Assembly: GCA_000002435.2 (NCBI GenBank)
Contig: CM018789.1
Length of the DNA: 64,000 nt
DNA from: Giardia intestinalis
Lineage: Eukaryota
Reading direction: 5' to 3' (one strand)
Shown: positions 48,611-64,000 of the stretch, piece after piece
Numbering within the stretch: position 1 is the stretch's first letter
Layout of the letters: every line of letters begins with the position of its first letter
Notes under the pieces: model-generated
What the model saw: only the letters and a program-made list of their open reading frames with translations
What the model was told of the DNA's origin: nothing
Databases searched by the model: none
Position numbers and translations under genes: made by a program

Positions 48611-49965
48611 AAGTTGGTGACCAACTTGGAGAGGGCTGCTCTATTCATCACATTGAAATCTGTAGCCAGCTTTATAGCATATAGTGCCCACTCCCGAGCA
48701 CCCGGGCAACCAAAATCTCCCGAGCAGTGTATCACAATAGAAGGCAGGCCATCTAGAATTCGAAGCGTCTCCTGGCTTGCTGGACATGATGCTAACAGTT
48801 GTGCAATTATAGTAAGCAAGCCGCTCCTATAGCCCGGCCAAAATATTCCGTGTGAAACTATATCATCGCAACTAACGGAAATATTAAATCGTGCACCTTC
48901 GTTCAGTAATTCTTCAATGTGTTTTTCTTGATCCTTTATTATAAACCCTGTGAATCCGAATTGGCCCGACCTATTCGGCTGCATTCTGATTGCATGTTGA
49001 AGAAGGAAAATGCAAACACCCATACATCCAGCCTCTGTATACTCTTTTCGAGATATTGCATCGGTGAGATGTTCTGTAGAGAGGCGTATTATGTCTAAAA
49101 GCGACAGAAGTGTCTGAAAGCTATCATAAGAAGCTAGACCTAAACATCCACTACTCTGGCGAACAACTTGCTCCAGAAAGTCTCTGCATTCGAGTAAATA
49201 ATCTACGGCTTCAGTATCTATCAAAGGGCCGGCCTCCATGGTAGAGTTGACATTCAGGCGTCCATTGAGTAGGGAGACAAGTGAATCGGTACCGGCTGCT
49301 CCTAGATGATTGATGTCCTCCTTCCCTTGCATATCAAACCCTGGAACATATGGTATTCCGATTTCCTTTCCAGCCGGAAACGATACTCTTGAGTAGAGTG
49401 TCGAGACACCAAGGATGGTGCAACAACTTTCAACTAACCGGCGTATGACAGAGCTTGAAAGGGCAGACGTGGAGGCAACTGTTGACAAAAGATCCATGGT
49501 CACCTGGTCGATGGGGAGATCTGAGACATCGCAGAAGCATGCATGGCTGGTCACCAGACGTTCGACAACAAGAAGGGCAACCCGGCCACAGCGCGACTCC
49601 TGGTCGGCGGCTGCCAACAGATACCTGTGTGCCTCTGCAAATAGCATAGATAGCATCTTACCAGATGCAGGAACAGGAATGGGCGAGGAGACTGGAGCCG
49701 CGGGGGTGGGGGTGGCCACCTGCAGCAGAAGGCCGAGCACGAAGACGAGGGCCTCACGTCCATCGGCGTTGAGCCGCGGGAAGGCCTGGTCCAGGGCGGC
49801 GAGGAGGGAGGGGCACGCGCGGACACTCGCGCAAGCGGGGGGCGGCCCGCCCTCCAGGACGCGGCCCAGACGGCGCAGCCCGCGGGTCAGGTCCTCGGGG
49901 GCGGCGAGCCCGCGGACAAACGCGGCGGGGTCGTCGAGGCCCCCGCAGCCGACCGGCTTGGTCAT
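48607..49965 (-). CDS. Ataxin-10-like protein (Atx10 homology/association domain). The start is uncertain.
   Basis: C-terminal ...CPGAREWALYAIKLATDFNVMNRAALSKL resembles the conserved ataxin-10 C-terminal motif (..REWAVFAIRNL.EDN..NQ..IA.L). The track start at 50118 is GTG and would run through a same-strand tRNA. The first ATG downstream of the tRNA is at 49965, 14 nt after the tRNA 3' end. An alternative ATG lies at about 49656. Confidence 0.5.
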   Translation of the reverse strand: MTKPVGCGGLDDPAAFVRGLAAPEDLTRGLRRLGRVLEGGPPPACASVRACPSLLAALDQAFPRLNADGREALVFVLGLLLQVATPTPAAPVSSPIPVPASGKMLSMLFAEAHRYLLAAADQESRCGRVALLVVERLVTSHACFCDVSDLPIDQVTMDLLSTVASTSALSSSVIRRLVESCCTILGVSTLYSRVSFPAGKEIGIPYVPGFDMQGKEDINHLGAAGTDSLVSLLNGRLNVNSTMEAGPLIDTEAVDYLLECRDFLEQVVRQSSGCLGLASYDSFQTLLSLLDIIRLSTEHLTDAISRKEYTEAGCMGVCIFLLQHAIRMQPNRSGQFGFTGFIIKDQEKHIEELLNEGARFNISVSCDDIVSHGIFWPGYRSGLLTIIAQLLASCPASQETLRILDGLPSIVIHCSGDFGCPGAREWALYAIKLATDFNVMNRAALSKLVTNF

Positions 49966-51076
49966 TGGGTCGGAAACGTGCAACCTGTGGGGCTCGAACC
50001 CACGCGGGATGACTCCCATTACGGCCTTAACGTAACGCCTTAACCACTCGGCCAAAGTTGCGCGCCAGCGGCAGTCCATGATAGACCCGTTTTCAAGGGT
50101 CTTTGGTATTGGTTCCACAAATCAATGTTAGACTGCATCGCCCGCCACAGAGGATGCGCGCGTAGGAGTCGCATACTTCACTTACAAGCAGCATAGGGCT
50201 GGCTAGCGTGCGACACACGGTTTGCTCGTCGAAGCGGACTGGACTCCTAGCTGAGCGCTGTGCTGGCGAAAGAAACACAGAGTTTCATGTCGTAAAACAA
50301 GGGTGGTTGTGAGGTAGTTACCTCTACCGAACGCTGGCCAGAGCCGTTGCTAGCGTTTTCACCAAAGGCCGCAATAACGCGCCGATCCGGCCGTTAGGCA
50401 GCGGGAGGAACCACGGTCCCCAGGGATATGCTAGCAGCACAAGAACCGTGCAAGAATTGAGCGTGGACATGCACGAGTTCTTTTACTGCGGAAGTGGACT
50501 GTATGCCGAGGCTTGTGCGATCATCAGCCTTTTGGTGCCAAGCCCTACTAAGTAGAAATGAGCTGCTGTATCAGGATAACAGGGTTCACTACAAGATAGG
50601 TAGGTGGCCAGACAGCGCAGCCCCTAAGCCCTTGCAAAGCTGGTTCTACAGGTCGATCTGGAGCTAAGGTTGCGCAACGACCGCAGTCTTGCGGGTCACG
50701 GCGAACTGGCACGTGAGCCCTCGAGATCCGCGAGCCATACGTCGTGTAGCTCCGCCAGCCCTCTTCTTCTAGAATAAGTAGGAGTTCCTGAGAAGCTTCG
50801 CTCCATGGGCAATAATAGAAGGCCTGCTTCCTAAGGATCGCGGTCCATATATCTCCGCATAGAAGACCTGAACAAGCCGAGTGGCGTCCTGTAGCGTCAA
50901 GGATAGCCTCAGCGTGGGACTTGGCCCAGGACTTTGCAGGCGCGTACTCTATGCAGCCACGTGCCGCTTTAGCGAGGTTCTGTCTTACTCGTCCGATTTC
51001 GGGCCTCCCCAGATGAAACCCCAGGAAGCAGTGGCGCATGCGCCGCGCCGGCGGGGCTCTGGTCACGGTGTGCTGT
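49780..51076. repeat. Arm A of a near-identical 1297-bp inverted duplication (partner at 53990..55286).
   Basis: The reverse complement of this arm matches arm B base-for-base wherever I compared. Three ORF translations are identical between arms. Boundaries were found by hand where the sequences diverge (outer GGACCAGGCCTTC| ; inner |CAGCACACCGTGACC). Confidence 0.8.
49979..50061 (-). tRNA. tRNA-Leu, anticodon AAG (class II, long variable arm).
   Basis: Folded by hand. Acceptor stem GCAACTT/AGGTTGC (7 bp, one G-U). D-loop GAGTGGTTAA. Anticodon stem TTACG/CGTAA with loop TTAAGGC. 15-nt variable arm forming a GGGA/TCCC hairpin. T-stem GTGGG/CCCAC with loop TTCGAGC. Discriminator A. Total 83 nt. 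Confidence 0.8.
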
Positions 51077-51943: not shown

Positions 51944-53455
51944 ATGCTGATTTCTATAGTGCTCTCCATAGCATCAGCATGCAGCATGGAAACGCCTTTC
52001 ACTGAGGAGCCCAGTCATGGGATGGGTGTACGCTTCACTCAGCGTGGATTGGAAAAATTTTGCCAGAAAGGTTATGCCCTTATTCCTGATATCATCTCTG
52101 CAATGCCTTCACTTCAGGTCCCAGAAGTAACTGTTGGACCTCTCAAGTTTACTTTGTCAAATGTCAAACCTCGCGCAGCGCGCGTCTCGACTATGAAGGT
52201 TCATTTGCAGGACAACAACTTTGTCAAGATGGAGGCCCGGGACGGACTCATGCAGATCTCGATGCGGCTCAAGGCAGTCATCACCGGGATCACCGGGACC
52301 GTCGACTGCATCTTCACCCTCAAGGATTTCGGGGCAGACATCTCCCTGAGGCTCGGGGATGACTCCACCTGTCCCTACCACTTTGGGCTCTCCGAGATAT
52401 CAAATGTCGTGTACTCGTCTGGGTTTGACATCGATGCCATCGGACTTGACACGGGGGGATCTGTCCTTGCAACTGCCATCCAGGGCATGGCGCCCACGTT
52501 GGAGGATTTGATGAAGAACACTGTGCTGCAGTCCCTCCTGGACACAATCTTCAATTCAGTAAAACAGTCAATGCTTAACCTGCTCACAGTTGTCCAGATC
52601 GACGACTATCTGACTGACCAGCGCTACATCAACGGCATCAATGTCGTCGATAACAAGATAGTGGCAGACCAGGGTGGCTTTTCAATGATCATCACTGTCC
52701 CAGATTGGTCGGTTAGAGCTCTCTATCCAAACAAGATCACCTCTCCCCCTCCGAAGACGGTCTACACCGACCGAGACTATGAGTTCTATGTAGACAGGGA
52801 ATCAGTTAACTCCTACCTGTATGCCTGGCATGTGGCGTATGACAAGTTCAAGGCAGATAGTCTCACTGTCCCGTACAGCACCATCAGGGGGCAGAACATA
52901 CCCGGCCTTGCAGAGGCCCTTGTGAAGGCCGGACTACTAAGCACTGTTAACGACCTTGGACTCGGAGTCACTCTGACTCTATCGATCAGTCCCTCCAAGG
53001 ATGCCGCACCCCACATACCGTGGATCGGGGCGGCTGCGCTACCGGTCAACCTCACGGGGGCACTTTCTGTAACGGCCAGTAAGGCTTCCACCTCTGCTTC
53101 TAAACTGTTGGTTAGTGCAGAAGGCAATGTGCTCTTTGTTTCTGCGCTTAAGCTTAGAAAGTTCGTTTATGGGTTTGGTCTTGACCAAGTCTATGCACAT
53201 ATAGAGTTTCTTGATGTGTACGAAATTGCTATCATCAAGAATAACGTTGGATCTATACATGACTTCATCCCTCTGTTAAAATTTCTGCTTCTAAATAAGT
53301 ACCTCCCATTTGCCAATCCAATCCTCACTGAAACAGGGATATGGCGTATGAATGGGAACTTTATTAGTTATGATGCCATCAGTACCATTTATTTATGCAA
53401 CGAAGATAGAGTGCTTTTTGCTACTGATGTAGAAAAGAACCAATACTTCGCTTGA
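51944..53455 (+). CDS. Secreted BPI/LBP/CETP-family lipid-binding protein (BPI-like).
   Basis: N-terminal signal peptide [14 protein letters not shown]. The N-domain is collinear with the BPI N-terminal barrel as I recall it ([22 protein letters not shown] ~ [39 protein letters not shown] ~ FDLSIEGMSISADLKLG). Length about 500 aa, as in BPI. The gene sits in an AT-rich spacer between the inverted arms. Confidence 0.6.
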   Translation: [503 protein letters not shown]

Positions 53456-53989: not shown

Positions 53990-55286
53990 ACAGCACACCG
54001 TGACCAGAGCCCCGCCGGCGCGGCGCATGCGCCACTGCTTCCTGGGGTTTCATCTGGGGAGGCCCGAAATCGGACGAGTAAGACAGAACCTCGCTAAAGC
54101 GGCACGTGGCTGCATAGAGTACGCGCCTGCAAAGTCCTGGGCCAAGTCCCACGCTGAGGCTATCCTTGACGCTACAGGACGCCACTCGGCTTGTTCAGGT
54201 CTTCTATGCGGAGATATATGGACCGCGATCCTTAGGAAGCAGGCCTTCTATTATTGCCCATGGAGCGAAGCTTCTCAGGAACTCCTACTTATTCTAGAAG
54301 AAGAGGGCTGGCGGAGCTACACGACGTATGGCTCGCGGATCTCGAGGGCTCACGTGCCAGTTCGCCGTGACCCGCAAGACTGCGGTCGTTGCGCAACCTT
54401 AGCTCCAGATCGACCTGTAGAACCAGCTTTGCAAGGGCTTAGGGGCTGCGCTGTCTGGCCACCTACCTATCTTGTAGTGAACCCTGTTATCCTGATACAG
54501 CAGCTCATTTCTACTTAGTAGGGCTTGGCACCAAAAGGCTGATGATCGCACAAGCCTCGGCATACAGTCCACTTCCGCAGTAAAAGAACTCGTGCATGTC
54601 CACGCTCAATTCTTGCACGGTTCTTGTGCTGCTAGCATATCCCTGGGGACCGTGGTTCCTCCCGCTGCCTAACGGCCGGATCGGCGCGTTATTGCGGCCT
54701 TTGGTGAAAACGCTAGCAACGGCTCTGGCCAGCGTTCGGTAGAGGTAACTACCTCACAACCACCCTTGTTTTACGACATGAAACTCTGTGTTTCTTTCGC
54801 CAGCACAGCGCTCAGCTAGGAGTCCAGTCCGCTTCGACGAGCAAACCGTGTGTCGCACGCTAGCCAGCCCTATGCTGCTTGTAAGTGAAGTATGCGACTC
54901 CTACGCGCGCATCCTCTGTGGCGGGCGATGCAGTCTAACATTGATTTGTGGAACCAATACCAAAGACCCTTGAAAACGGGTCTATCATGGACTGCCGCTG
55001 GCGCGCAACTTTGGCCGAGTGGTTAAGGCGTTACGTTAAGGCCGTAATGGGAGTCATCCCGCGTGGGTTCGAGCCCCACAGGTTGCACGTTTCCGACCCA
55101 ATGACCAAGCCGGTCGGCTGCGGGGGCCTCGACGACCCCGCCGCGTTTGTCCGCGGGCTCGCCGCCCCCGAGGACCTGACCCGCGGGCTGCGCCGTCTGG
55201 GCCGCGTCCTGGAGGGCGGGCCGCCCCCCGCTTGCGCGAGTGTCCGCGCGTGCCCCTCCCTCCTCGCCGCCCTGGACCAGGCCTTC
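53990..55286. repeat. Arm B of the inverted duplication (partner at 49780..51076).
   Basis: See arm A. The translated ORFs are identical (MFLSPAQRSARSP...; ...TRAPPARRMRHCF...; MEPIPKTLENGS...LDQAF) and diverge exactly at the arm ends. Confidence 0.8.
55005..55087 (+). tRNA. tRNA-Leu, anticodon AAG (second copy, in arm B).
   Basis: Same 83-nt sequence as 49979..50061 on the opposite strand: GCAACTTTGGCCGAGTGGTTAAGGCGTTACGTTAAGGCCGTAATGGGAGTCATCCCGCGTGGGTTCGAGCCCCACAGGTTGCA. Confidence 0.8.
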
Positions 55287-55519
55287 TACTGCTCTGCCTG
55301 CGTGGTGGGTGTCCCCAGGCAACTGTCCTCCCCGTCTCCGTCGCTGACACTGCCTGCCCCTCTCTGCGCTACGATCCGGCCTCCTCCCTCCTCTATGTCC
55401 TGGCCCCCACGACTGATGTAGGAGTCGTTCTGTGCTGCGTCTGCTTCCAGGAGCCCGCAACTCTGGACCCGGCGCTACGGGGGTTCGAGTGGTTCACTCA
55501 GACCGGCACGGAGTTTTAC

Positions 55520-56038
55520 ATGTCCCGGGTTGTTGTCTCGAGTCCCGAGGAGCATCTCTCGTACCGCTGCAAAGAGGGTCCTGAGCTTGCAGAGGCGCAG
55601 GTCGGGGCCGTCTGCATGTGTGGCACCTCGGCTGTCGTCGCCGTGTCGGCCGTTTCCGAGACCGGCGAGCGCTCCGATCTGCCGGTCCTCCTGGTCGTCT
55701 CCGGCCTGCTGTCGCATCTCTCGTTCTCCACGATAGAACTCGATGACTTCGGGGCCCAGAACCTACCCCCGGAGTCAGAGTCGTTCCGCATCTTCTCTCT
55801 GTCCCCATCCTCGGCTGCCCCGGGAAGCCTCTGTCTGGCCTTCTGCAAGGGAAGCCTCCTCCACTTCCACAGGATGCCCGTGGAGAGCGGCACAGACAGC
55901 CCCCGCTCTGTCGGCACATGCGAGCTGGCCCCTTCGACACACACGTTCTGCGCCCTGTACGAGACAGAAGGGGCCCTGCGGTGCGTCTTCACGGCCGTGG
56001 ATGGAGCGCGCCTGTTCCTCTGCATGGCGAGTACGTAG
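55520..56038 (+). CDS. Possible GC3-rich coding segment of unknown function. Start unresolved; may be a 5'-truncated gene remnant.
   Basis: In a 65% GC block this frame alone has protein-like composition and a strong G/C third-position bias (gtc tcc ggc ctg tcg ttc ...). The other five frames give R/P/G-rich noise. The frame is open from 55232 (TTG). The first ATG is at 55520 without an AT-rich promoter. Confidence 0.3.
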   Translation: MSRVVVSSPEEHLSYRCKEGPELAEAQVGAVCMCGTSAVVAVSAVSETGERSDLPVLLVVSGLLSHLSFSTIELDDFGAQNLPPESESFRIFSLSPSSAAPGSLCLAFCKGSLLHFHRMPVESGTDSPRSVGTCELAPSTHTFCALYETEGALRCVFTAVDGARLFLCMAST

Positions 56039-56434
56039 GTGAGTTCCGGCCGTCGCGCTGGGGTCGGGGGGAGGTCGCAGAAGGACCAGGAGGGGAGGCA
56101 GAGGAAGCACAAGGCACGGGTCAGCGATGCGTAGGGCTGTCCTTCCGCTGCCCAGTGCATACAAGGGTGCGCACAGCCACGACCGTCGCGCAGACGAGCC
56201 AATGGCAGGAGCGGGCCCGCACCTCTTCCTGCGCCGTGGAGTCTGAGGATCCGAGCTGGGGTCCCGGGGATGACACACAGGGGCACAGACACGCAGGCGC
56301 ACCTCTTCAGTGCCCCACAAACGGATGCTCTCGTGCAGAGGCCACGGGAGTCTATGAATGAGGCCCACGAGAGCCCAGAGATCGGGCACCCACTGCTCAC
56401 CCACGCCAGAGCACCGCCCACATGTCCATACAGC

Positions 56435-56441
56435 ATTTACT
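56435..56441 (-). promoter_or_regulatory. Giardia polyadenylation signal AGTAAAT (AGTRAAY) for the VSP gene.
   Basis: It lies about 14 nt downstream of the VSP TAA on the minus strand (...TAAgtggcatccacttaggtAGTAAATgctg), the canonical spacing for Giardia. Confidence 0.55.
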
Positions 56442-56458
56442 ACCTAAGTGGATGCCAC

Positions 56459-58357
56459 TTACGCCTTCCCGCGGCAGATGAACCACCAGCAAAGGAAGCC
56501 CACGAGGCCTCCGACGACGACGATGACAGCAACAGAGATGCCGGCTATGGCCCCAGTGGAGAGACCACTCTTGTTTGTACTACCACCGGCGTTGTTATCG
56601 TTACCACCATCGTTAGTGCCATCTGTCTTGACGTAGCAGGTGACAGGACCACTATTACCAGTTGGAGGGGCACAGCTTATACAATTTGGGACACCAACAA
56701 TATGGCTACCATCATTGGGATCATTGGTGTCGCACTTCACACATTTTGCTCCGGCAAGATAGTATCCCGGAAGGCACGTTTTGCATGCCTCCTTGTTTGC
56801 TACCTCACATGTTTTACAACCAGATGCACATGCTGGACAAGATCCAGTGCTAGCTTCTGGTTGTTGTCCATTAGCACAATTCGTACATTTTCCATTCTGA
56901 GCATTGCTACATAGGTTGCTGCCTGGGTATGCAGCCGACTGATAGCATCCGCCAGATTGCAAGAAGTATGTGGTTGTACACGCTTTGCATGTTCCATCAT
57001 TGTTATCATTTGGCGTGCATCCAGTTACTGCCCTTGTCGTTGTCGACACACAGACGCCGTCCACTGGGACGTATCCGGCCTTGCACTTGCTGCAGTACTT
57101 CGAGCCCCCAACGACGGCCGTGCACTGGCCAGCCTCGCAGTTCTCTGCGTACCTTCCCGTGCACTCTGGGATGCATGTGCCGGTGGCTCCAGTATTGCTT
57201 TTACTCAATACAAGCCCAGGATAACAAGCTGTACAGGAGGCTTCACTATCACCATCACATTCTGCACAAGAATTATGGCAATTAGTACATATCCCGCTGA
57301 CATCACGAGTTCCTGCAGGACAGCCCTCCATACACATGTTCTTTAAGGGGTTTAGGCTTTTACCTCCAGTACACTCTTCACACATATTCTCTTCATTACA
57401 CTTTATACAATCCTGTATATCACATAGTACACACTTCGTTCCGTCGGCGTTGGGTTGATTAGTACCTGCTATACAAGCAGAGCACGTGATGAGAATTGTA
57501 CCTTCAGGATTATCCTTCAGAGCACACGTTTTGCAGTCTGCTATCCCTTCTGAGCATTTCTTACACATTTTTCCATTAGTAGGATCGTCAGCATCATCAG
57601 TGAAGTGGGAGTTATCATTACATCCACTTTTATCAATACATGTATTAGAGTCCTCGGTTTCGCCCTTTTTTAGATATGGCTTGTTAGCGGTTGCCTTGCA
57701 CTTCGTGCATTTTCCTGCTCCACCATCGCATTTAGCACAGTTATCCCTATCAGTACACGCTGTACACGTACTTCCAGCATTACCAAGATTTGTACCGAAA
57801 AATCCCTCTAGACACGTTTTGCATATAGCAACATCTGAGCTAGGAGGATCACATGTCGCACAGCCCTCCAAGCCTTTCTTGCCTCCAACTCCAGTTGCAT
57901 CATTGCATGCAATACAAGAGTCCTTATTGTTAGCTGCACTTGGGTTTTTAAAATAGCCAACTACGCAACCCTCACAAACGCCAGGAGTTGTTGATGACAC
58001 ACGACTAGCAGCTGCGGCATCAGCGCAAATAAAGCGTCCAACGTCCCCGCCAATTGCATAGCATCCGTTCTTATGGAGGAAGTATCCTTGAGCGCATTGG
58101 GTGCACGTTCCGTCAGCTGCTCGGGCTTTGAGCTGGCATCCACTGGCGCCTGCCTCTGCCTTACACCCTCCATCAACGAGGTACTCGTCAGTCTTAGCGC
58201 ACTGCGAGCAATACTTCTTGCCGTTGATCCACACGTCGCATTTGCTTGTCAAGCACTTTCCTGCTTGGCCTTCCCCTGCCTCCGTGCACGTCTCTGCCTC
58301 CGGCGCTGCCCAAGCCAATTGCAAAACAAATCCCGCAACGATCAATCTACAGAACAT
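56459..58357 (-). CDS. VSP: Variant-specific surface protein (VSP).
   Basis: Signal peptide MFCRLIVAGFVLQLAWA. About 12% Cys with many CXXC motifs. GGCY motif (SGGCYQSAAYPG). C-terminal TM (AIAGISVAVIVVVGGLVGFLCWWFI) followed by the invariant CRGKA-stop. Confidence 0.92.
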   Translation of the reverse strand: MFCRLIVAGFVLQLAWAAPEAETCTEAGEGQAGKCLTSKCDVWINGKKYCSQCAKTDEYLVDGGCKAEAGASGCQLKARAADGTCTQCAQGYFLHKNGCYAIGGDVGRFICADAAAASRVSSTTPGVCEGCVVGYFKNPSAANNKDSCIACNDATGVGGKKGLEGCATCDPPSSDVAICKTCLEGFFGTNLGNAGSTCTACTDRDNCAKCDGGAGKCTKCKATANKPYLKKGETEDSNTCIDKSGCNDNSHFTDDADDPTNGKMCKKCSEGIADCKTCALKDNPEGTILITCSACIAGTNQPNADGTKCVLCDIQDCIKCNEENMCEECTGGKSLNPLKNMCMEGCPAGTRDVSGICTNCHNSCAECDGDSEASCTACYPGLVLSKSNTGATGTCIPECTGRYAENCEAGQCTAVVGGSKYCSKCKAGYVPVDGVCVSTTTRAVTGCTPNDNNDGTCKACTTTYFLQSGGCYQSAAYPGSNLCSNAQNGKCTNCANGQQPEASTGSCPACASGCKTCEVANKEACKTCLPGYYLAGAKCVKCDTNDPNDGSHIVGVPNCISCAPPTGNSGPVTCYVKTDGTNDGGNDNNAGGSTNKSGLSTGAIAGISVAVIVVVGGLVGFLCWWFICRGKA

Positions 58358-58782
58358 TAAGATTGCAGATATGTTACATGTAATCTATCAAAGATTGACA
58401 TGGGCTAACATACGATCGGATACTACGATTGTCTTGTTGGAAGTATACACTGGGCGCCTTCTCAACACAGTGTTCTCTGTAAATAGTCTATGCGCAAACT
58501 CTAGCCCCCACCAGATTCGTAACGCCAATCCTCAAACACTTCGTTTGCAACGAAGCAGCTAGTGCACATCTATCAACATGCAAAGCCATTCCTACTTTAA
58601 AAGGAACCTTTCTCTCACGTTAGGCCTGCTATGGCACGAGGCTTCCGACTGTCTCAATTTCCAGAGAGCCTAAGAATAGCGCCTTCCATACAGTAGCTCT
58701 CATTTTAGCGAAGGTATAACTATGATCCTGAAGGATCGTCTGAATACTCGTTGGAGCAAAAAATTTTAAATCTCGAGAGTCA

Positions 58783-60687
58783 ATGGACTTTGATCAGGCA
58801 CAACAGATACCGTCAGCAGTGGGGCCTGTTGGCATTCTGTCAGTCGAGCAGTACACAAGCCTCATTGAGTCTTATACATCAGTCTTAAACCCCCATGACG
58901 GAACACTTGTGTCAACGTGTCCGTCCATTAAAGTCCTTTCTCTACGGATCGAGGATACGAAGGTTCCAAACCCAAGGCTTTATTTCTGCATAGACAGCGA
59001 TGTGGAGGGCGTTCGCCAGACGACACTGGCTTTGCATTTAGAAACGCTGCAGAACCTCTGGAGGGCATTAAAAACGGTCTTCCACAAGACAATGGTGGCC
59101 GTACCGATTCTTCCACCCGAGATATCATCGAAGTCCTACTTAAGCTCTCGGTTTATGCGGGGCATTGTCCTTTACCTCGCAGCTCTCCTTCGGCGCTTAC
59201 TATCGCACTCTATCATCAAGCGCCACGAAGTAATGGTGCAGCTATTCACCCGCCACGAAAGCGATGTCTTGCCGATGCTCCAGAAGCTTGCAAATCCAGA
59301 TTTTACACAAGGGCATGCACCAGGGGACGACATCATTAGAAATATAGTAAGTCGGGCACACGGGCATCTCCATAGTAATTTGCACGAGTCTGGCTTAATG
59401 CTTGCCCTCAATCTATCATTACTCTACAACTTTTCCTTGGACGACGCCGCGTTCCTCAAGACAGCCTACTACGGACCCAATTTTGCAAAGCTGATAACAG
59501 ACCGCACAATCACCAAGAGCGCTCTAGCAACCTTTAGAGGGAAAACACGGATTAATGCTGCGTATCTTCAGTCTATTGACCAAGTCTTAGATATGCCAAG
59601 GGGCCAATTCCTCAATACGTTTCTTTATGGACTAATTGATCTAGAGGATTTTCTGTCGCCGAATTTCGGTAAAAAGATCCGCGGGATTTTCCTCAAGCGT
59701 CATCTTATCATAGAGGAGAACCTCAAATCAGCTTATGACAGCGTCAAGCGTCTCTCTGCTTCGGTTGCCGAAATAATAACTGCTGAAACAAGTATTTCAT
59801 CCTCAATGTCAGGACTTGCAGATTCTCTTACCTTTTTATTTGTGTCAGAGACGAAATTTGATGGCGTCCTGGCCGGCCCCGCAACAAACTCAGTGGCGGC
59901 ATGTGTCAATCCACCAACCCAGTCAGACTTCCTCCATACTCAGATAGCTAACCAGTTGCGTGCAGACGTCTATCCACGCTTGGCTGCTTCGTTGGATATC
60001 ATCTCTGCAATGGCTAAGATGGCTACAATGCGCTATGACTACATAATAGTTGGAGAATTTCTCGCTTCTATCCTGAAAAAGAAGGCCAGCGATATTATTT
60101 ACCTAAAGGTCCAGCAGGAGACTATCGGCGATGTTGTACTAATTAACAAAGATGCTGTAAAGAGACAAATAGATGCCATACGCGCATCCGATCTGCATAC
60201 CTTTTCATATGGGATATATAAAGACACCGAAAGAGAGTCTCCCCTGTCCTTGAGTCTTGCTTATGAAAGTGACAAGTCAGAGCTAGAGGGTATTTTAAAT
60301 GCAATAGACGATGAAGCAACGGTTTCCTTTAACAGCTTATGCTCGAGGCTGTCCTTGTCTAGAGCCCAAATAGACTTGTTAGATTCTTTCAGACGCGTTC
60401 ATGCAGCATTTATTGAGCATATCATGTATTCAATTGTTATGGAGTCAAGATTCGTGTATGAGTATCTCTTTTACAAGTGTATGGTATCAGAGTTAATCGT
60501 GCACTCTATGGGCCGCTTATCAGCGATTTTCGGCAGAACGATCCATTTAGAGTCTAACCTGTGGGAGTATTCCGATGAATGGATCAGAAAGACTCGCGGG
60601 CAAGAGACACCATGGCACAAGATAAATGAACTAGACAACGAGCGCTACGAGTTGGAGGTTGACCTGCACAAAGAGCAGGGTCAGTGA
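58783..60687 (+). CDS. Hypothetical protein (634 aa).
   Basis: ATG at 58783 after gcaaaaaattttaaatctcgagagtca. It is transcribed divergently from the VSP across a 425-bp intergenic region. No family recognised. Confidence 0.55.
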   Translation: MDFDQAQQIPSAVGPVGILSVEQYTSLIESYTSVLNPHDGTLVSTCPSIKVLSLRIEDTKVPNPRLYFCIDSDVEGVRQTTLALHLETLQNLWRALKTVFHKTMVAVPILPPEISSKSYLSSRFMRGIVLYLAALLRRLLSHSIIKRHEVMVQLFTRHESDVLPMLQKLANPDFTQGHAPGDDIIRNIVSRAHGHLHSNLHESGLMLALNLSLLYNFSLDDAAFLKTAYYGPNFAKLITDRTITKSALATFRGKTRINAAYLQSIDQVLDMPRGQFLNTFLYGLIDLEDFLSPNFGKKIRGIFLKRHLIIEENLKSAYDSVKRLSASVAEIITAETSISSSMSGLADSLTFLFVSETKFDGVLAGPATNSVAACVNPPTQSDFLHTQIANQLRADVYPRLAASLDIISAMAKMATMRYDYIIVGEFLASILKKKASDIIYLKVQQETIGDVVLINKDAVKRQIDAIRASDLHTFSYGIYKDTERESPLSLSLAYESDKSELEGILNAIDDEATVSFNSLCSRLSLSRAQIDLLDSFRRVHAAFIEHIMYSIVMESRFVYEYLFYKCMVSELIVHSMGRLSAIFGRTIHLESNLWEYSDEWIRKTRGQETPWHKINELDNERYELEVDLHKEQGQ

Positions 60688-60716
60688 TCTCCGCCAGTGA
60701 TCTCTAGCACTTCCTG

Positions 60717-63632
60717 CTATGAGATGTCTTTTCCAAAGACTTCTTGTACAAGTGTGTGCATAAGATTATAGTCTGACATGTGTACTATGTGTGCATCTCG
60801 CCCGGTTCTCCTATCCATTTTTGTGGACCCTTGTAGCATAGGATCCATAACTGATAAATCATACAGAAGCCTCTTTGTGGGCACCTTAGCTACCTTGTCT
60901 AGAAATATGTGATGCTTCTCTTTCTCAGGCCCCTTGCTCTTACCGTCAGGAAGAAGCAGTGCGCTTCTAAAATCAACGTATCCATCTTGGAGAGATGAAA
61001 TCATATAAATAGATTTAAATCGACCGAGATTGCTGTGCTTTGCAAGAATCTCCAGCAGGGGTACGCTGGTCAATTCCTTCAATAGATTGGCATCATGGGG
61101 GACATCCTTCATAAATGGATAGCTATAATACATGCACTCAAGCTGCTTTTTCGTAAGCTTGCCTCCCATAAGCTCTCGTAAGGAGATTTCTTTGCTGTTG
61201 GATGACATCAAGGTCATCCCAAATCTGACAAGCCCGTTACCTCCTTTAGCACCAGCCAGGGGTCCGTTCAGAAAAACGGCTTTATTCAGAAGGTCGAGAA
61301 ATCCAGAAAACGCAGATGATAGGATGCACGCTTCTATGACCAAGCATCCCATACTGTGCCCCACCATATTTATGCGACCTACGTTAGTCTTCCGGGTCTG
61401 GATGTAATCCCTTATCTCTTCAGCTAGCTTAATCCCCAATTCGAGAATGCTACTCTGTGTATGCTCCTGATATGATCTGCTCAGGAGGACATGTGGTTGT
61501 TTGGGAAACCACTGCTTCTGCATCGTGCCGTGAACTATTGCATACTGCATGAGGCAATTAGACATTAGTCGCAAGTCACAGTACGTGCCCCGATAACCGT
61601 GCGCGAACACATAGAGATCCCTGCTCTGTCTCTTCTGTCTAACCAAGTCGGTTATAGATGGTTGCTCCTCTATATTCATAGGCACTGACCGAATGTCCTT
61701 ATGCACATTTTTTGTAAGAGATAGGATAGGAGGAAATGTAAACACACGGGAAGGAGAGTCTGAGCCCCATATTAATTCAATTGGAAAGAGATCATCTCTG
61801 TATCGCTCCACTAACAAGAGTAGACCCTTAGTGGAATTGGTATCTGAAATAGACAAAAGAGAAGGTGGTAGCGATGGAGTCTGGTGCTCTTGGGATACAT
61901 CGTTGAACTTAGCGTTCGATGAAGCCATCGAGTCCTTTATTGTTTTCATCATGGCTAACTCTATATCCGTTCCTTTTCGTTTGGAGTCATCTTTGGGCTC
62001 TAAGACACAAGGAGGAAAGTTGGCAGGACTGGATCCTCTTTTTGCTCTAAAAGCCCTACTCGATGCCTTCTGTCGCTTCTTTTCAGGACCTGAATCTCGC
62101 TCAGCAGAGCTATAAGCGTCCGGTTGTAGGGTATGACTTAGTAAGTGCTTGGCTTTATTTTGTATGGCTTTAAGCTTGATGGTTTCTCGTTCTAGAAGTG
62201 CTTTCATGTAATCCGATGTGTAAAGGTCCACCTTGTCGGGAGAGCAGTTGTGTGTAGATGTATTCAGGGCAGTGGATACAGAGTTAACGCTTTTCTGTTT
62301 AATGATTGGTGCCCGGCGTTCTTGCGGGTCTTCGATGGTAGAGCTGGGCTCGGCAAAGCTTTTACTCTTTGGGGAGTCTTCCAACGATGAGATAGGCAGT
62401 TTTGATTCAAAGTAGTGTGTTAGAGTATCGTAAGCTACCGCTGCAATGGACGCTTCAGAAGATTCTAGAATCAATCTAGTATACTTCTTACACTCCAAAA
62501 AGTATATTGAATCCAACCTTTCTTCAGGTAAAGTGGTATATCTTTGCACATAGGTGTCAAGCAAATTGGAAGTGCCGATATTAGCAATCTTGTTAAGATA
62601 GTAAAGCTTAAAGAAAATAAGAGTCACACGCTTCAATGTTGCAAAGTCAAAACTGTCTGGTGTGGAATTGCACTGAGATAGTATTTTTCTAAGATGCGCA
62701 GGGGTCTCAAGGAACATATGTTCTCTCCCCGAGAGGTTGACTAGGGGGTCTGTTGACATAGGAGGTCCAAGCTCATCTCCTGAGAACCTCAGTGTTACAT
62801 GCACAGGCGTTGAAGATTCCTGAGAAAAAGCTAGATCAATAGTCCTCTGACTAGAATTGAAGATGGCGGAGTTGAGTACCTGGACAGTGTCTGTGACTGT
62901 AGGGACTGGCGCGGACAGCAGGTCATCAAAATCATTTGTTAGTTTCTCCGGAGAAAGGTACTTTCTTGGTTGAGCCTCAGGTATGCTCACCAAATCATCA
63001 TATTGAAGGGTTGTCTCGGTGGAGAACATGAGTTTAAGAAAGGCTGTCAAGCACTCAGGCTTATGAAGCCAAAGGGCTGTGATCTTATCATCTGGGAGAG
63101 CCAGCACCTCTACGGGGTACCAACTAATTATTGTACTCACATGTGAAAAGAAGGTATAGCTTATGTGTTCCGAGAAGCATGTAATGCACGGAAGCAGGAG
63201 AGAATTAAGGCGGTATCTTTTCCTGACAAGCCTCTTGAACGAGGAAAGGGGCAGGTCCGCCTTAGGCGGCATGGTCACCGATTTCCTGGCTTTTCCATAG
63301 AGAGATACCGATATGATGGAAGATGAGTCTATGTTGTAGACGTGGAACAGGGAGAAGCAGAGCTGAACGTTTAAATCTATCAACTGATCTGCATAGCGTA
63401 TTGCAAAAACGGCAGTGCGCATACCGTTCTCATGGTTAGCGGGTGGATACTCTGGATGAAGATATGTATTCGATGTGTTCATAGAAATATACTTATTTGT
63501 CCTAATGGCCAACAAGCCAGGTGGTTGTGGATGTTCAAAAGTTACGGCCAGGAACATGAAACCTTCCGTTACGATATCGATATTTCGTAGTGAATGAAAG
63601 CAGATACTCAAATCCGTCTTAAGGATCTTCAT
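60717..63632 (-). CDS. Putative serine esterase/lipase of the DUF676 (FAM135-like) family.
   Basis: The C-terminal third contains LYVFAHGYRGTYCDLRLM (cf. DUF676 VVLVHGL.G...DLR) and the GXSXG nucleophile elbow in INMVGHSMGCLVIEAC. The large N-terminal region is as in FAM135 proteins. ATG confirmed at 63632..63630. Confidence 0.55.
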   Translation of the reverse strand: MKILKTDLSICFHSLRNIDIVTEGFMFLAVTFEHPQPPGLLAIRTNKYISMNTSNTYLHPEYPPANHENGMRTAVFAIRYADQLIDLNVQLCFSLFHVYNIDSSSIISVSLYGKARKSVTMPPKADLPLSSFKRLVRKRYRLNSLLLPCITCFSEHISYTFFSHVSTIISWYPVEVLALPDDKITALWLHKPECLTAFLKLMFSTETTLQYDDLVSIPEAQPRKYLSPEKLTNDFDDLLSAPVPTVTDTVQVLNSAIFNSSQRTIDLAFSQESSTPVHVTLRFSGDELGPPMSTDPLVNLSGREHMFLETPAHLRKILSQCNSTPDSFDFATLKRVTLIFFKLYYLNKIANIGTSNLLDTYVQRYTTLPEERLDSIYFLECKKYTRLILESSEASIAAVAYDTLTHYFESKLPISSLEDSPKSKSFAEPSSTIEDPQERRAPIIKQKSVNSVSTALNTSTHNCSPDKVDLYTSDYMKALLERETIKLKAIQNKAKHLLSHTLQPDAYSSAERDSGPEKKRQKASSRAFRAKRGSSPANFPPCVLEPKDDSKRKGTDIELAMMKTIKDSMASSNAKFNDVSQEHQTPSLPPSLLSISDTNSTKGLLLLVERYRDDLFPIELIWGSDSPSRVFTFPPILSLTKNVHKDIRSVPMNIEEQPSITDLVRQKRQSRDLYVFAHGYRGTYCDLRLMSNCLMQYAIVHGTMQKQWFPKQPHVLLSRSYQEHTQSSILELGIKLAEEIRDYIQTRKTNVGRINMVGHSMGCLVIEACILSSAFSGFLDLLNKAVFLNGPLAGAKGGNGLVRFGMTLMSSNSKEISLRELMGGKLTKKQLECMYYSYPFMKDVPHDANLLKELTSVPLLEILAKHSNLGRFKSIYMISSLQDGYVDFRSALLLPDGKSKGPEKEKHHIFLDKVAKVPTKRLLYDLSVMDPMLQGSTKMDRRTGRDAHIVHMSDYNLMHTLVQEVFGKDIS

Positions 63633-64000
63633 TTGGAGTTATAGACGCTTACTTAGGAGATTGGATTTTCAAGCAATGTAAATCTTTTATTAAATTTTGT
63701 ACCAAATGCTGTTCTCATGATCATTCTATCGTGACAAAATCCTTAGATTCTGGGCTACACTGAACTGCCTCTTGTCGTCTACTGTCCACACAAGATGACA
63801 TACTCTTGAGTATTCTTGAATTAACACTAAAACGAGCCTCCGACAGTTAGAGATAAGATATCACTGATTGGATTCACTGATTTAGCTTGTTCCACTGCCT
63901 ATTTGCTTAGCTATAACAAGGAAGAGAAATATACACGAGAATGTGGTCGTGCTCTGCTTACAGTTGACACTCTCTATAGAGCCAGAAACAGAGGGCCTCT

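What the first reader, a model, noticed from the sequence alone, without database searches (positions are those of the whole stretch)
56435..58782. Complete VSP gene with canonical CRGKA tail and AGTAAAT signal, adjacent to the rearranged region
It has all the hallmarks of a Giardia variant-specific surface protein. VSP loci are known sites of genome plasticity. Finding one 1.2 kb from a perfect inverted duplication, at a GC-composition boundary, fits that pattern. Whether this VSP is telomere-proximal or paired with another VSP beyond the window cannot be seen here. The 425-bp divergent region upstream (58358..58782) is long for Giardia and may carry VSP-specific control sequence.
Basis: partly seen in the sequence, partly recalled or inferred. 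Interest (0 to 1): 0.5.

Follow-up and report, generated by a model that had tools for sequence, protein, structure and literature searches.

The report
Known Giardia surface-antigen gene VSP29
This is an ordinary, already catalogued surface-antigen (VSP) gene of the reference Giardia strain WB; the only mildly unusual points are that it keeps the same chromosomal position in other Giardia lineages and that its coding body is a patchwork shared with a paralogue.

Summary
ORF 56459..58357 (-) encodes a complete 632-aa variant-specific surface protein. It has a signal peptide, 26 CXXC, one GGCY, a transmembrane helix, a CRGKA tail, a TAatgTT initiator and the extended VSP poly(A) signal.

It is 100% identical to the annotated WB protein XP_001709123/KAE8301798. 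Its properties match VSP29 = GL50803_113163 (chromosome 1, solitary) in the 2010 VSP catalogue. So it is already known.

The wider interpretation is only partly supported:
- **Position is conserved.** The gene sits beside the same two neighbours (634-aa gene, DUF676 hydrolase) in assemblage AII (DH) and E (P15).
- **Plasticity is still visible.** The coding body is mosaic: residues 1 to about 95 are locus-specific and the rest is 92-100% identical to chr5 VSP114. DH carries a different 410-aa VSP here. Synteny ends 1.15 kb downstream, at the edge of the 1297-bp inverted duplication, which truncates a conserved 448-aa high-GC gene.
- **The upstream spacer shows no special constraint.** The 425-bp spacer is long and its length is conserved, but it diverges at about the neutral rate.
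- **Not paired or telomeric.** No other VSP lies within 56 kb on one side or about 12 kb on the other.

The parts
56459..58357 (-). Complete VSP coding sequence (632 aa), = VSP29 / GL50803_113163 of Giardia WB
   Evidence: Pfam VSP E=2e-86. 100% identical to P0001 = XP_001709123.1/KAE8301798.1. It has 75 Cys (11.9%), 26 CXXC, 0 CXC and a GGCY at residue 469. These values match the catalogue row for VSP29.
58301..58357 (-). N-terminal signal peptide region (MFCRLIVAGFVLQLAWAAP...) with candidate initiator TAatgTT at the ATG
   Evidence: Hydrophobic N-terminus. Start context CAATCTTAATGTTCT. The PyAatgTT Inr is defined in PMC2996952. The catalogue lists TAATGTT for VSP29.
58059..58357 (-). Locus-specific 5' module of the VSP (residues 1 to about 99), conserved with the DH and P15 VSPs at the same locus
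   Evidence: In alignment columns 1-80 it is 94-95% identical to the DH VSP and 68-78% to P15, but only 18-28% to the chr5 paralogue. DH nucleotide homology resumes at 58059. Short-read contigs L003-L006 end at 58055-58064.
56459..58058 (-). VSP body (residues about 100-632) shared with chr5 paralogue VSP114 (GL50803_113304)
   Evidence: 92-100% identity per 40-column window to P0002, except alignment columns 161-240 at 49-56%. P0002 is 636 aa with 74 Cys and 27 CXXC, matching the VSP114 row.
56633..56767 (-). 'Motif 1' (GYY...two CXXC...GPVTCY, residues 531-575), needed for surface localisation according to Li et al. 2013
   Evidence: Regex match of 45 residues. Motif definition in PMC3656445. 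The spacer between the two CXXC is 16 residues, against 12-15 in the paper.
56462..56575 (-). Conserved C-terminal module ('motif 2'): transmembrane helix plus CRGKA tail
   Evidence: Kyte-Doolittle peak at residues 597-630. 82-100% identical in the WB, DH, P15 and chr5 paralogue proteins.
56433..56449 (-). Extended VSP polyadenylation signal ACTTAGGTAGTAAATGC, 9 nt after the stop codon
   Evidence: It matches exactly the motif ACTTAGGTAGT[AG]AA[CT]GC, located 0-15 bp after VSP stops, described in PMC3091692. It is the only such motif on either strand of the window.
58358..58782 (.). 425-bp divergent intergenic spacer between the VSP and the 634-aa gene GL50803_007343
   Evidence: It is the second longest of 10 divergent spacers in the window, where the median is 178 bp. 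Its length is conserved (P15 445 bp, DH 425 bp). Its sequence is 64.8% identical to P15. Rfam finds nothing above threshold.
55287..56131 (+). Downstream neighbour: high-GC remnant of a conserved 448-aa gene, convergent with the VSP. It is 5'-truncated at the inverted-repeat edge and has a premature stop at 56036-56038.
   Evidence: GC is 0.65 and GC3 0.79.
53990..55286 (.). Arm 2 of the perfect 1297-bp inverted duplication (arm 1 = 49780-51076). It carries a copy of tRNA-Leu(AAG).
   Evidence: The DH contig L012 spans the arm-2/remnant junction.

Best explanation
The feature is the complete gene for variant-specific surface protein VSP29 (GL50803_113163) on chromosome 1 of Giardia intestinalis WB (assemblage AI).

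**How it works (from the family literature, not tested here).** The protein is a type I membrane protein. A cleaved signal peptide sends it to the trophozoite surface, where a cysteine-rich ectodomain (CXXC, GGCY) forms the antigenic coat. A single C-terminal helix anchors it, and the five-residue CRGKA tail stays in the cytoplasm. Only one member of the repertoire is displayed at a time, and switching does not move the gene.

**Shown here.** All sequence hallmarks are present. The gene is identical to the annotated protein. It is solitary and chromosome-internal.

**Inferred.** The gene is a positionally anchored VSP locus. Its 5' module (start region, signal peptide, first ~95 residues) and its 3' module stay in place across assemblages A and E. 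The ectodomain-coding body has been exchanged or homogenised with non-allelic VSPs: it is near-identical to chr5 VSP114 in WB, and DH carries a different 410-aa body.

**The neighbouring rearrangement.** The 1297-bp inverted duplication is a separate event. It cut a different gene, the 448-aa high-GC gene, and its outer junction carries a 7-nt microhomology (GAAGGCC).
For: - **Family match.** Pfam VSP E=2e-86.
- **Protein hallmarks.** 632 aa, 75 Cys, 26 CXXC, 0 CXC, GGCY, hydrophobic N-terminus, C-terminal transmembrane helix and CRGKA.
- **Flanking signals.** TAatgTT start and the extended poly(A) motif 9 nt after the stop.
- **Identity.** 100% identical over full length to the NCBI/UniProt 'VSP' of WB, on a 1,485,438-bp contig. 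The catalogue row VSP29/GL50803_113163 (chr 1, complete, TAATGTT, 632 aa, 75 Cys, 11.9%, 26 CXXC, no pair or array flag) matches my counts exactly.
- **Solitary.** It is absent from the list of duplicated VSP pairs in the 2020 assembly. There is only one CRGKA and one VSP-like hit in the whole 64-kb window. No VSP lies in the ~6.7 kb beyond the window.
- **Synteny.** P15 has DUF676, a 633-aa gene and a 652-aa VSP. DH has the same neighbours with a 410-aa VSP.
- **Mosaic body.** Sliding identity. Short-read contigs break at 58055-58064.
- **Remnant and junction.**
Against: There is no expression, small-RNA or protein-level evidence for this particular VSP. I found no paper text or held supplement that mentions GL50803_113163 beyond the catalogue.

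The direction and timing of the exchange with chr5 VSP114 cannot be decided, because the chr5 DNA was not retrievable.

The spacer between the two CXXC of motif 1 is 16 residues, one more than the 12-15 range reported.

The assemblage-B evidence for positional conservation is only a partial cysteine-rich ORF at a contig end.
Confidence: 0.96

Rival explanations
1. The gene is intact in sequence but is a silent reservoir copy or pseudo-VSP. It is never displayed and serves only as donor or acceptor material for recombination.
For: Many WB VSP-like ORFs are now annotated as pseudo-VSPs: 208 against 133 VSPs. No literature mention of expression of GL50803_113163 was found. The body is nearly identical to that of another VSP.
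Against: Pseudo-VSPs are defined by lack of a signal peptide or start codon and by sitting inside linear arrays. This gene has an ATG in a TAatgTT initiator, a hydrophobic signal peptide, motif 1 plus motif 2, a poly(A) signal and a solitary position. It is annotated 'VSP', not pseudo-VSP. Its orthologue is kept intact in P15.
Confidence: 0.08
2. The VSP itself drives the local instability. The inverted duplication 1.15 kb away arose because VSP loci are recombination-prone.
For: VSPs are among the gene classes most often found at synteny breaks between WB and P15, and VSP regions are described as gene-poor and variable. Synteny with P15 and L011 ends 1.15 kb from this VSP. AI and AII carry different VSP bodies here.
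Against: Neither arm of the duplication contains VSP-like sequence; tblastn of the VSP against the window hits only the VSP itself. The junctions lie in a tRNA-Leu/Atx10-domain gene segment and in the 448-aa gene, not in the VSP. The outer junction shows a 7-nt microhomology, which fits a replication template switch or end-joining that needs no VSP homology. The VSP, its spacer and its upstream neighbours are collinear in AI, AII and E.
Confidence: 0.15
3. The protein is a non-VSP cysteine-rich protein (HCMP or HCP) that merely resembles VSPs.
For: The family search also returns proteins named 'High cysteine membrane protein' at 41-42% identity.
Against: HCMPs have frequent CXC motifs and lack the conserved 3' end. 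This protein has 0 CXC, the full conserved C-terminal 38-40 residues, CRGKA and the VSP-specific poly(A) motif.
Confidence: 0.01

Closest known systems
VSP29 / GL50803_113163 (XP_001709123.1, KAE8301798.1, UniProt A8B728), Giardia intestinalis WB chromosome 1
   Same: Identical protein, 632/632 residues. Same length, Cys count, CXXC count, initiator type and chromosome as the catalogue entry.
   Different: Nothing; this is the same gene.
VSP114 / GL50803_113304 (P0002, 636 aa, chromosome 5 of WB)
   Same: 80% identical overall. From about residue 100 to the C-terminus it is 92-100% identical in most 40-residue windows, including motif 1, the transmembrane helix and CRGKA.
   Different: The N-terminal ~95 residues are unrelated (18-28% identity), and alignment columns 161-240 are 49-56% identical. 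The catalogue lists a different initiator type, CAATGTT. It lies on a different chromosome and carries two protein accessions in the 2020 annotation.
P15 (assemblage E) VSP P0003, 652 aa, contig ACVC01000045.1
   Same: It is the positional orthologue. It has the same neighbours (DUF676 972 aa, 633-aa gene), the same orientation, a 445-bp spacer and the same high-GC gene downstream. It is collinear over the full length at 68% identity.
   Different: The middle third (alignment columns 121-320) is only 30-56% identical. The downstream 448-aa gene is not truncated at the point where WB has the inverted-repeat arm.
DH (assemblage AII) VSP at the same locus, 410 aa, contig AHGT01000007.1
   Same: Same position, spacer (425 bp), neighbours, 5' 300 nt (97.7% over the block 58059-64000) and 3' end (89%). 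The same remnant/arm-2 junction lies downstream.
   Different: The ectodomain body is a different sequence. It lacks the C-terminal half of the WB ectodomain: 10-38% identity in columns 121-480 and none in columns 481-640, where DH has no aligned residues.

Membership tests
Giardia variant-specific surface protein (VSP; Pfam PF03302; definitions of Adam et al. 2010 and Xu et al. 2020) | C-terminal CRGKA pentapeptide at the end of a conserved ~38-residue C-terminus | tested here: met
   ...GLVGFLCWWFICRGKA*. The C-terminal module is 82-100% identical to three other VSPs. Definition.
Giardia variant-specific surface protein (VSP) | Hydrophobic transmembrane segment immediately before CRGKA | tested here: met
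   Kyte-Doolittle 19-residue windows reach 2.65 across residues 597-630.
Giardia variant-specific surface protein (VSP) | N-terminal signal peptide (14-17 aa), required by the 2020 annotation to be a VSP rather than a pseudo-VSP | tested here: inconclusive
   Hydrophobic N-terminus MFCRLIVAGFVLQLAWAAP (hydropathy 1.61) with an A-W-A-like cleavage context. No SignalP run was available. The public annotation names it VSP, not pseudo-VSP.
Giardia variant-specific surface protein (VSP) | Cysteine-rich (~11-12%) with many CXXC and essentially no CXC (CXC marks HCMPs) | tested here: met
   75 Cys = 11.9%, 26 CXXC, 0 CXC. Criterion.
Giardia variant-specific surface protein (VSP) | GGCY motif (present in 83% of complete VSPs) | tested here: met
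   GGCY at residue 469. Frequency.
Giardia variant-specific surface protein (VSP) | Extended polyadenylation signal ACTTAGGTAGT[AG]AA[CT]GC 0-15 bp after the stop codon | tested here: met
   Exact match at 56449-56433, 9 nt after TAA. Motif from PMC3091692.
Giardia variant-specific surface protein (VSP) | Candidate initiator PyAatgTT at the start codon (72% of complete VSPs that are not downstream members of linear arrays) | tested here: met
   cttaATGTTc = TAatgTT. The catalogue lists TAATGTT.
Surface-localising 'core' VSP as defined by Li, Saraiya and Wang 2013 | Motif 1 (45 aa: GYY ... two CXXC 12-15 aa apart ... (G/T)(S/P)VXCY), about 17 aa upstream of the 38-aa hydrophobic motif 2 | tested here: met
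   GYYLAGAKCVKCDTNDPNDGSHIVGVPNCISCAPPTGNSGPVTCY is exactly 45 aa (residues 531-575) and is followed by 57 residues that include motif 2. One deviation: the CXXC spacer is 16 residues. I could not check membership in the paper's list of 73, because the supplement is not held.
Giardia variant-specific surface protein (VSP) | Mutually exclusive surface expression and switching (the functional definition) | not testable with these tools
   This requires clone-specific antibodies or RNA-seq and proteomics. No literature record for this gene was found.
Identical inverted VSP pair or linear VSP array | A second VSP within 2-4 kb (pair) or head-to-tail neighbours (array) | tested here: not met
   There is only one CRGKA-ending ORF, one VSP poly(A) motif and one tblastn hit in 64 kb. 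No VSP lies in the 6.7 kb beyond the window. The catalogue gives no feature flag. The gene is not in the 2020 pair table.

The most novel reading that the evidence does not exclude
This locus may be an example of a positionally fixed VSP 'expression site-like' slot. The start region, signal peptide, first ~95 codons and the conserved 3' module are retained across assemblages A and E, and possibly B. The ectodomain cassette between them is swapped by gene conversion with distant VSPs: the WB body equals chr5 VSP114, and DH has an unrelated, shorter body. If many solitary initiator-bearing VSPs behave this way, cassette exchange at anchored slots would be a defined route of repertoire diversification. 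Recombination among VSPs in general is already reported (Adam et al. 2010), so only the 'anchored slot' aspect would be new.
Probability: 0.12. Interest if true: 0.4.

Novelty: already known. Interest (0 to 1): 0.12.

Why it matters
It matters little as a discovery. The gene is in the reference annotation and in the published VSP catalogue, and it behaves as a textbook VSP in every sequence feature.

The useful by-products are contextual:
- It is one of the VSPs that keeps a syntenic position between assemblages, although the P15 genome paper states that VSPs are rarely syntenic.
- It shows a clean mosaic junction with a paralogue on another chromosome, coinciding with the points where short-read assemblies break.
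- The GC step and the 'rearranged region' next to it are explained by a different, unannotated conserved gene that the inverted duplication truncated, not by the VSP.

Tried and rejected
- **WB chromosomal coordinates.** Exact-protein look-ups failed for the VSP, its chr5 paralogue and two ORFs of the high-GC block. The absolute position on chromosome 1 and the chr5 DNA were therefore not obtained.
- **Hidden RNA gene.** Rfam at gathering threshold found only the two tRNA-Leu copies. A permissive scan of 55200-58900 gave one sub-threshold chance hit, Polynucleobacter-1, 21.3 bits against 37.
- **Conserved control elements in the spacer.** Overall identity to P15 is 64.8%, below the 70.9% at four-fold sites of the neighbouring gene. 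The best island (58489-58458, 30 of 32 identical) is not significant by my rough binomial estimate once about 400 window positions are allowed for. I rejected it as evidence.
- **P0004 as the assemblage-B positional orthologue.** P0004 (53% identical) sits beside PGK, Cluap1 and a proteasome subunit, so it is a different locus.
- **Literature on this gene.** Searches by gene ID, accession and UniProt ID returned nothing relevant. Three supplement searches were empty or not held.
- **AII-like metagenome contigs L010 and L011.** I considered them as evidence of polymorphism 3' of the VSP. I did not rely on them, because joins inside the conserved VSP 3' end may be assembly chimeras.
Full report

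Yes. The - strand carries a 632-codon ORF at 56459..58357 whose product ends in ...CWWFICRGKA.

- The stop codon TAA lies at 56461-56459.
- After nine bases comes ACTTAGGTAGTAAATGC (56449-56433).
- The ATG sits in cttaATGTTc, with two in-frame stops 9-10 codons upstream.
- The next gene, a divergent 634-aa ORF, starts at 58783, so the spacer is 425 bp.
- A perfect 1297-nt inverted repeat has arms at 49780-51076 and 53990-55286. Its right edge is 1149 bp from the VSP poly(A) signal.
- GC drops from 0.64-0.69 (55000-56500) to about 0.49 in the VSP.

**2. What is it?**

Pfam assigns the protein to PF03302 (Giardia VSP) at E=2.1e-86. The protein has:

- 75 cysteines (11.9%), 26 CXXC, no CXC and one GGCY;
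- a hydrophobic N-terminus and a strong C-terminal transmembrane segment directly before CRGKA;
- the 45-residue 'motif 1' (GYY...CVKC...CISC...GPVTCY) and the hydrophobic 'motif 2'. Li et al. 2013 found these necessary and sufficient for surface localisation. One deviation: the CXXC spacer is 16 residues rather than 12-15.

The 3' flank matches exactly the 17-nt extended poly(A) motif. The P15 genome paper calls this the only regulatory motif uniquely associated with VSP genes, found 0-15 bp after the stop. The start matches the candidate initiator PyAatgTT.

**3. Identity.**

The protein is 100% identical over its full length to the 'VSP' of Giardia intestinalis WB (XP_001709123.1 / KAE8301798.1 / UniProt A8B728), on a 1,485,438-bp contig. 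Its neighbours are also exact matches to WB proteins: GL50803_007343 and an alpha/beta hydrolase.

In Additional file 1 of Adam et al. 2010, one row fits: VSP29, clade II, GL50803_113163, chromosome 1, complete, TAATGTT, 632 aa, 75 Cys, 11.9%, 26 CXXC, with no pair, array or tandem-repeat flag. All of these values equal my own counts. The gene is not among the 19 duplicated VSP pairs of the 2020 chromosome-scale assembly. The feature is therefore already known and annotated.

**4. Is it paired or telomere-proximal?**

No.

- The 64-kb window holds only one ORF ending in CRGKA, one VSP poly(A) motif and one tblastn match to the VSP.
- Independent short-read contigs extend about 6.7 kb past the window's right end. 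They carry DUF676, a 1424-aa gene and a MAP65/ASE1 gene, and no VSP.
- With 56 kb of ordinary genes on one side and at least 12 kb on the other, and no rRNA in the window, the gene is chromosome-internal. Adam et al. report this for nearly all VSPs.

**5. Is the locus conserved?

On the 5' side it is.

- P15 (assemblage E) has DUF676 (972 aa), a 633-aa gene and a 652-aa VSP in the same order and orientation, with a 445-bp spacer.
- DH (assemblage AII) and three AII-like metagenome contigs have the same neighbours, a 425-bp spacer and a 410-aa VSP.
- A B-like contig ends 665 bp upstream of the 634-aa orthologue. It shows a cysteine-rich ORF containing GGCY on the VSP strand, which is suggestive only.

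The P15 paper states that VSPs are rarely in syntenic positions, so this one is among the exceptions.

**6. Plasticity is nevertheless visible in two places.**

*(a) Inside the gene.* A four-way protein alignment shows a mosaic:

| Region | vs DH VSP (same locus) | vs P15 orthologue | vs chr5 paralogue P0002 |
|---|---|---|---|
| Alignment columns 1-80 (residues 1-80) | 94-95% | 68-78% | 18-28% |
| Residue ~100 onward | 10-38% to col. 480; no aligned DH residues in cols 481-640; 82-100% in the C-terminal module | 30-56% in cols 121-320; mostly 72-88% in cols 321-600 | 92-100% in most windows |

- P0002 is 636 aa with 74 Cys and 27 CXXC, which equals VSP114/GL50803_113304.
- DH shares only the 5' 300 nt and the 3' ~290 nt. 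Its ectodomain body is different and shorter.
- P15 is collinear throughout at 68% identity, so the WB-type body is probably ancestral at this locus.
- Short-read contigs of WB-like samples terminate at 58055-58064, exactly at the mosaic junction. That is expected if the sequence from there on is repeated elsewhere in the genome.

*(b) Downstream.* The high-GC block is not part of the VSP.

- Positions 55287-56131 (+) are the 3' two-thirds of a conserved 448-aa gene (GC 0.65, GC3 0.79).
- That gene is full length in L011 and L014, 438 aa in a B-like contig, and at least 335 aa at the P15 contig end.
- In WB it is cut at 55286, the outer edge of inverted-repeat arm 2, and has a premature TAG at 56036-56038.
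- Homology of P15 and L011 to the window stops at 55280.
- The junction shares a 7-nt microhomology, GAAGGCC, with the arm-1 side and with the P15 orthologue.
- The DH contig runs through the junction (54800-56278, 97%). The junction therefore exists in both AI and AII and is not an artefact of the WB assembly.
- No VSP-like sequence lies at either repeat boundary.

**7. The 425-bp spacer.**

It is the second longest of ten divergent spacers in the window (median 178 bp), and its length is conserved. Its sequence is not. WB-P15 identity is 64.8%, against 70.9% at four-fold degenerate sites and 92.4% at the amino-acid level in the adjacent gene. A few short identical islands exist: 58489-58475, 58468-58458, 58432-58423 and 58382-58372. 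By a rough estimate they are not beyond chance. Rfam finds nothing. The data give no support for an extended VSP-specific control region. The known VSP-associated motifs are the initiator at the ATG and the extended poly(A) signal, and both are present.

**8. Mechanism.**

From the family literature:

- The signal peptide directs the protein to the surface, where the CXXC-rich ectodomain forms the coat.
- The C-terminal helix anchors the protein.
- The Cys and Arg of the CRGKA tail are reported to be palmitoylated and citrullinated, respectively.
- Only one VSP is expressed at a time, without gene relocation.

All structural prerequisites are shown here. Expression and switching of this particular gene are not shown.

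**9. Verdict.**

The VSP call is correct but already known (VSP29, GL50803_113163). The plasticity story is partly supported: the position is conserved, the coding body is mosaic, and a breakpoint 1.15 kb downstream belongs to a different gene. The control-sequence idea is unsupported. Interest is low.

Noticed in passing
window 55287-56131 (+): Remnant of a conserved high-GC 448-aa gene (GC 0.65, GC3 0.79). It is truncated at the inverted-repeat edge and carries a premature TAG at 56036-56038. The full-length protein has no homologue among NCBI-annotated Giardia proteins. Only metagenome and Logan gene calls match it (P0142-P0145), so the gene appears to be unannotated in WB, DH, P15 and GS.
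   Followed up: partly
window 49780-51076 and 53990-55286: Perfect 1297-bp inverted duplication with a 2913-bp spacer. Each arm carries tRNA-Leu(AAG) (49978-50061 on -, 55005-55088 on +) and the first ~62 codons of the Atx10-domain gene (ATG at 49965). The copy in arm 2 gives a chimeric out-of-frame ORF at 55101-55421. The outer junction has the 7-nt microhomology GAAGGCC.
   Followed up: partly
window 51944-53455 (+): A 503-aa ORF sits alone in the spacer between the two repeat arms, flanked by low-GC (0.35) stretches. It has no Pfam match.
   Followed up: no
L014 495-3117 (ENA ERZ27317378 k141_116213): This is a second locus with the same arrangement of the 448-aa gene convergent on a VSP. 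The gene is full length here and faces a short (~141-aa) VSP with CRGKA and the extended poly(A) signal. TTL, Bystin and Syja_N genes follow; none of them is in the window. The pairing of the 448-aa gene with a VSP may itself have been duplicated.
   Followed up: partly
L010 7001-8343, L011 1-3179, L012 1-1695: AII-like assemblies disagree on what lies 3' of the same 410-aa VSP. L010 has Peptidase_C1. L011 has the full 448-aa gene plus an ankyrin protein. DH (L012) has the remnant plus the repeat arm. L011 differs from DH by 28 mismatches, apparently all 3' of the VSP. This is either structural polymorphism or chimeric joins in the conserved VSP 3' end.
   Followed up: partly
L016 1-665 (ENA ERZ28636381 scaffold_2573, B-like): Upstream of the 84%-identical orthologue of the 634-aa gene there is a cysteine-rich ORF on the VSP strand (…CGSCSGGFFLFRGGCY…CTAC…). 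It runs off the contig end and has no obvious ATG. The same contig has two MatE-domain ORFs inserted between DUF676 and the 1411-aa gene; these are absent from the A and E loci.
   Followed up: no
window 58783-60687 (+): The conserved 634-aa hypothetical protein GL50803_007343 gives a borderline Pfam hit to Herpes_UL55 (E=1.8e-5, 25.3 bits against a cut-off of 25). This is probably spurious.
   Followed up: no
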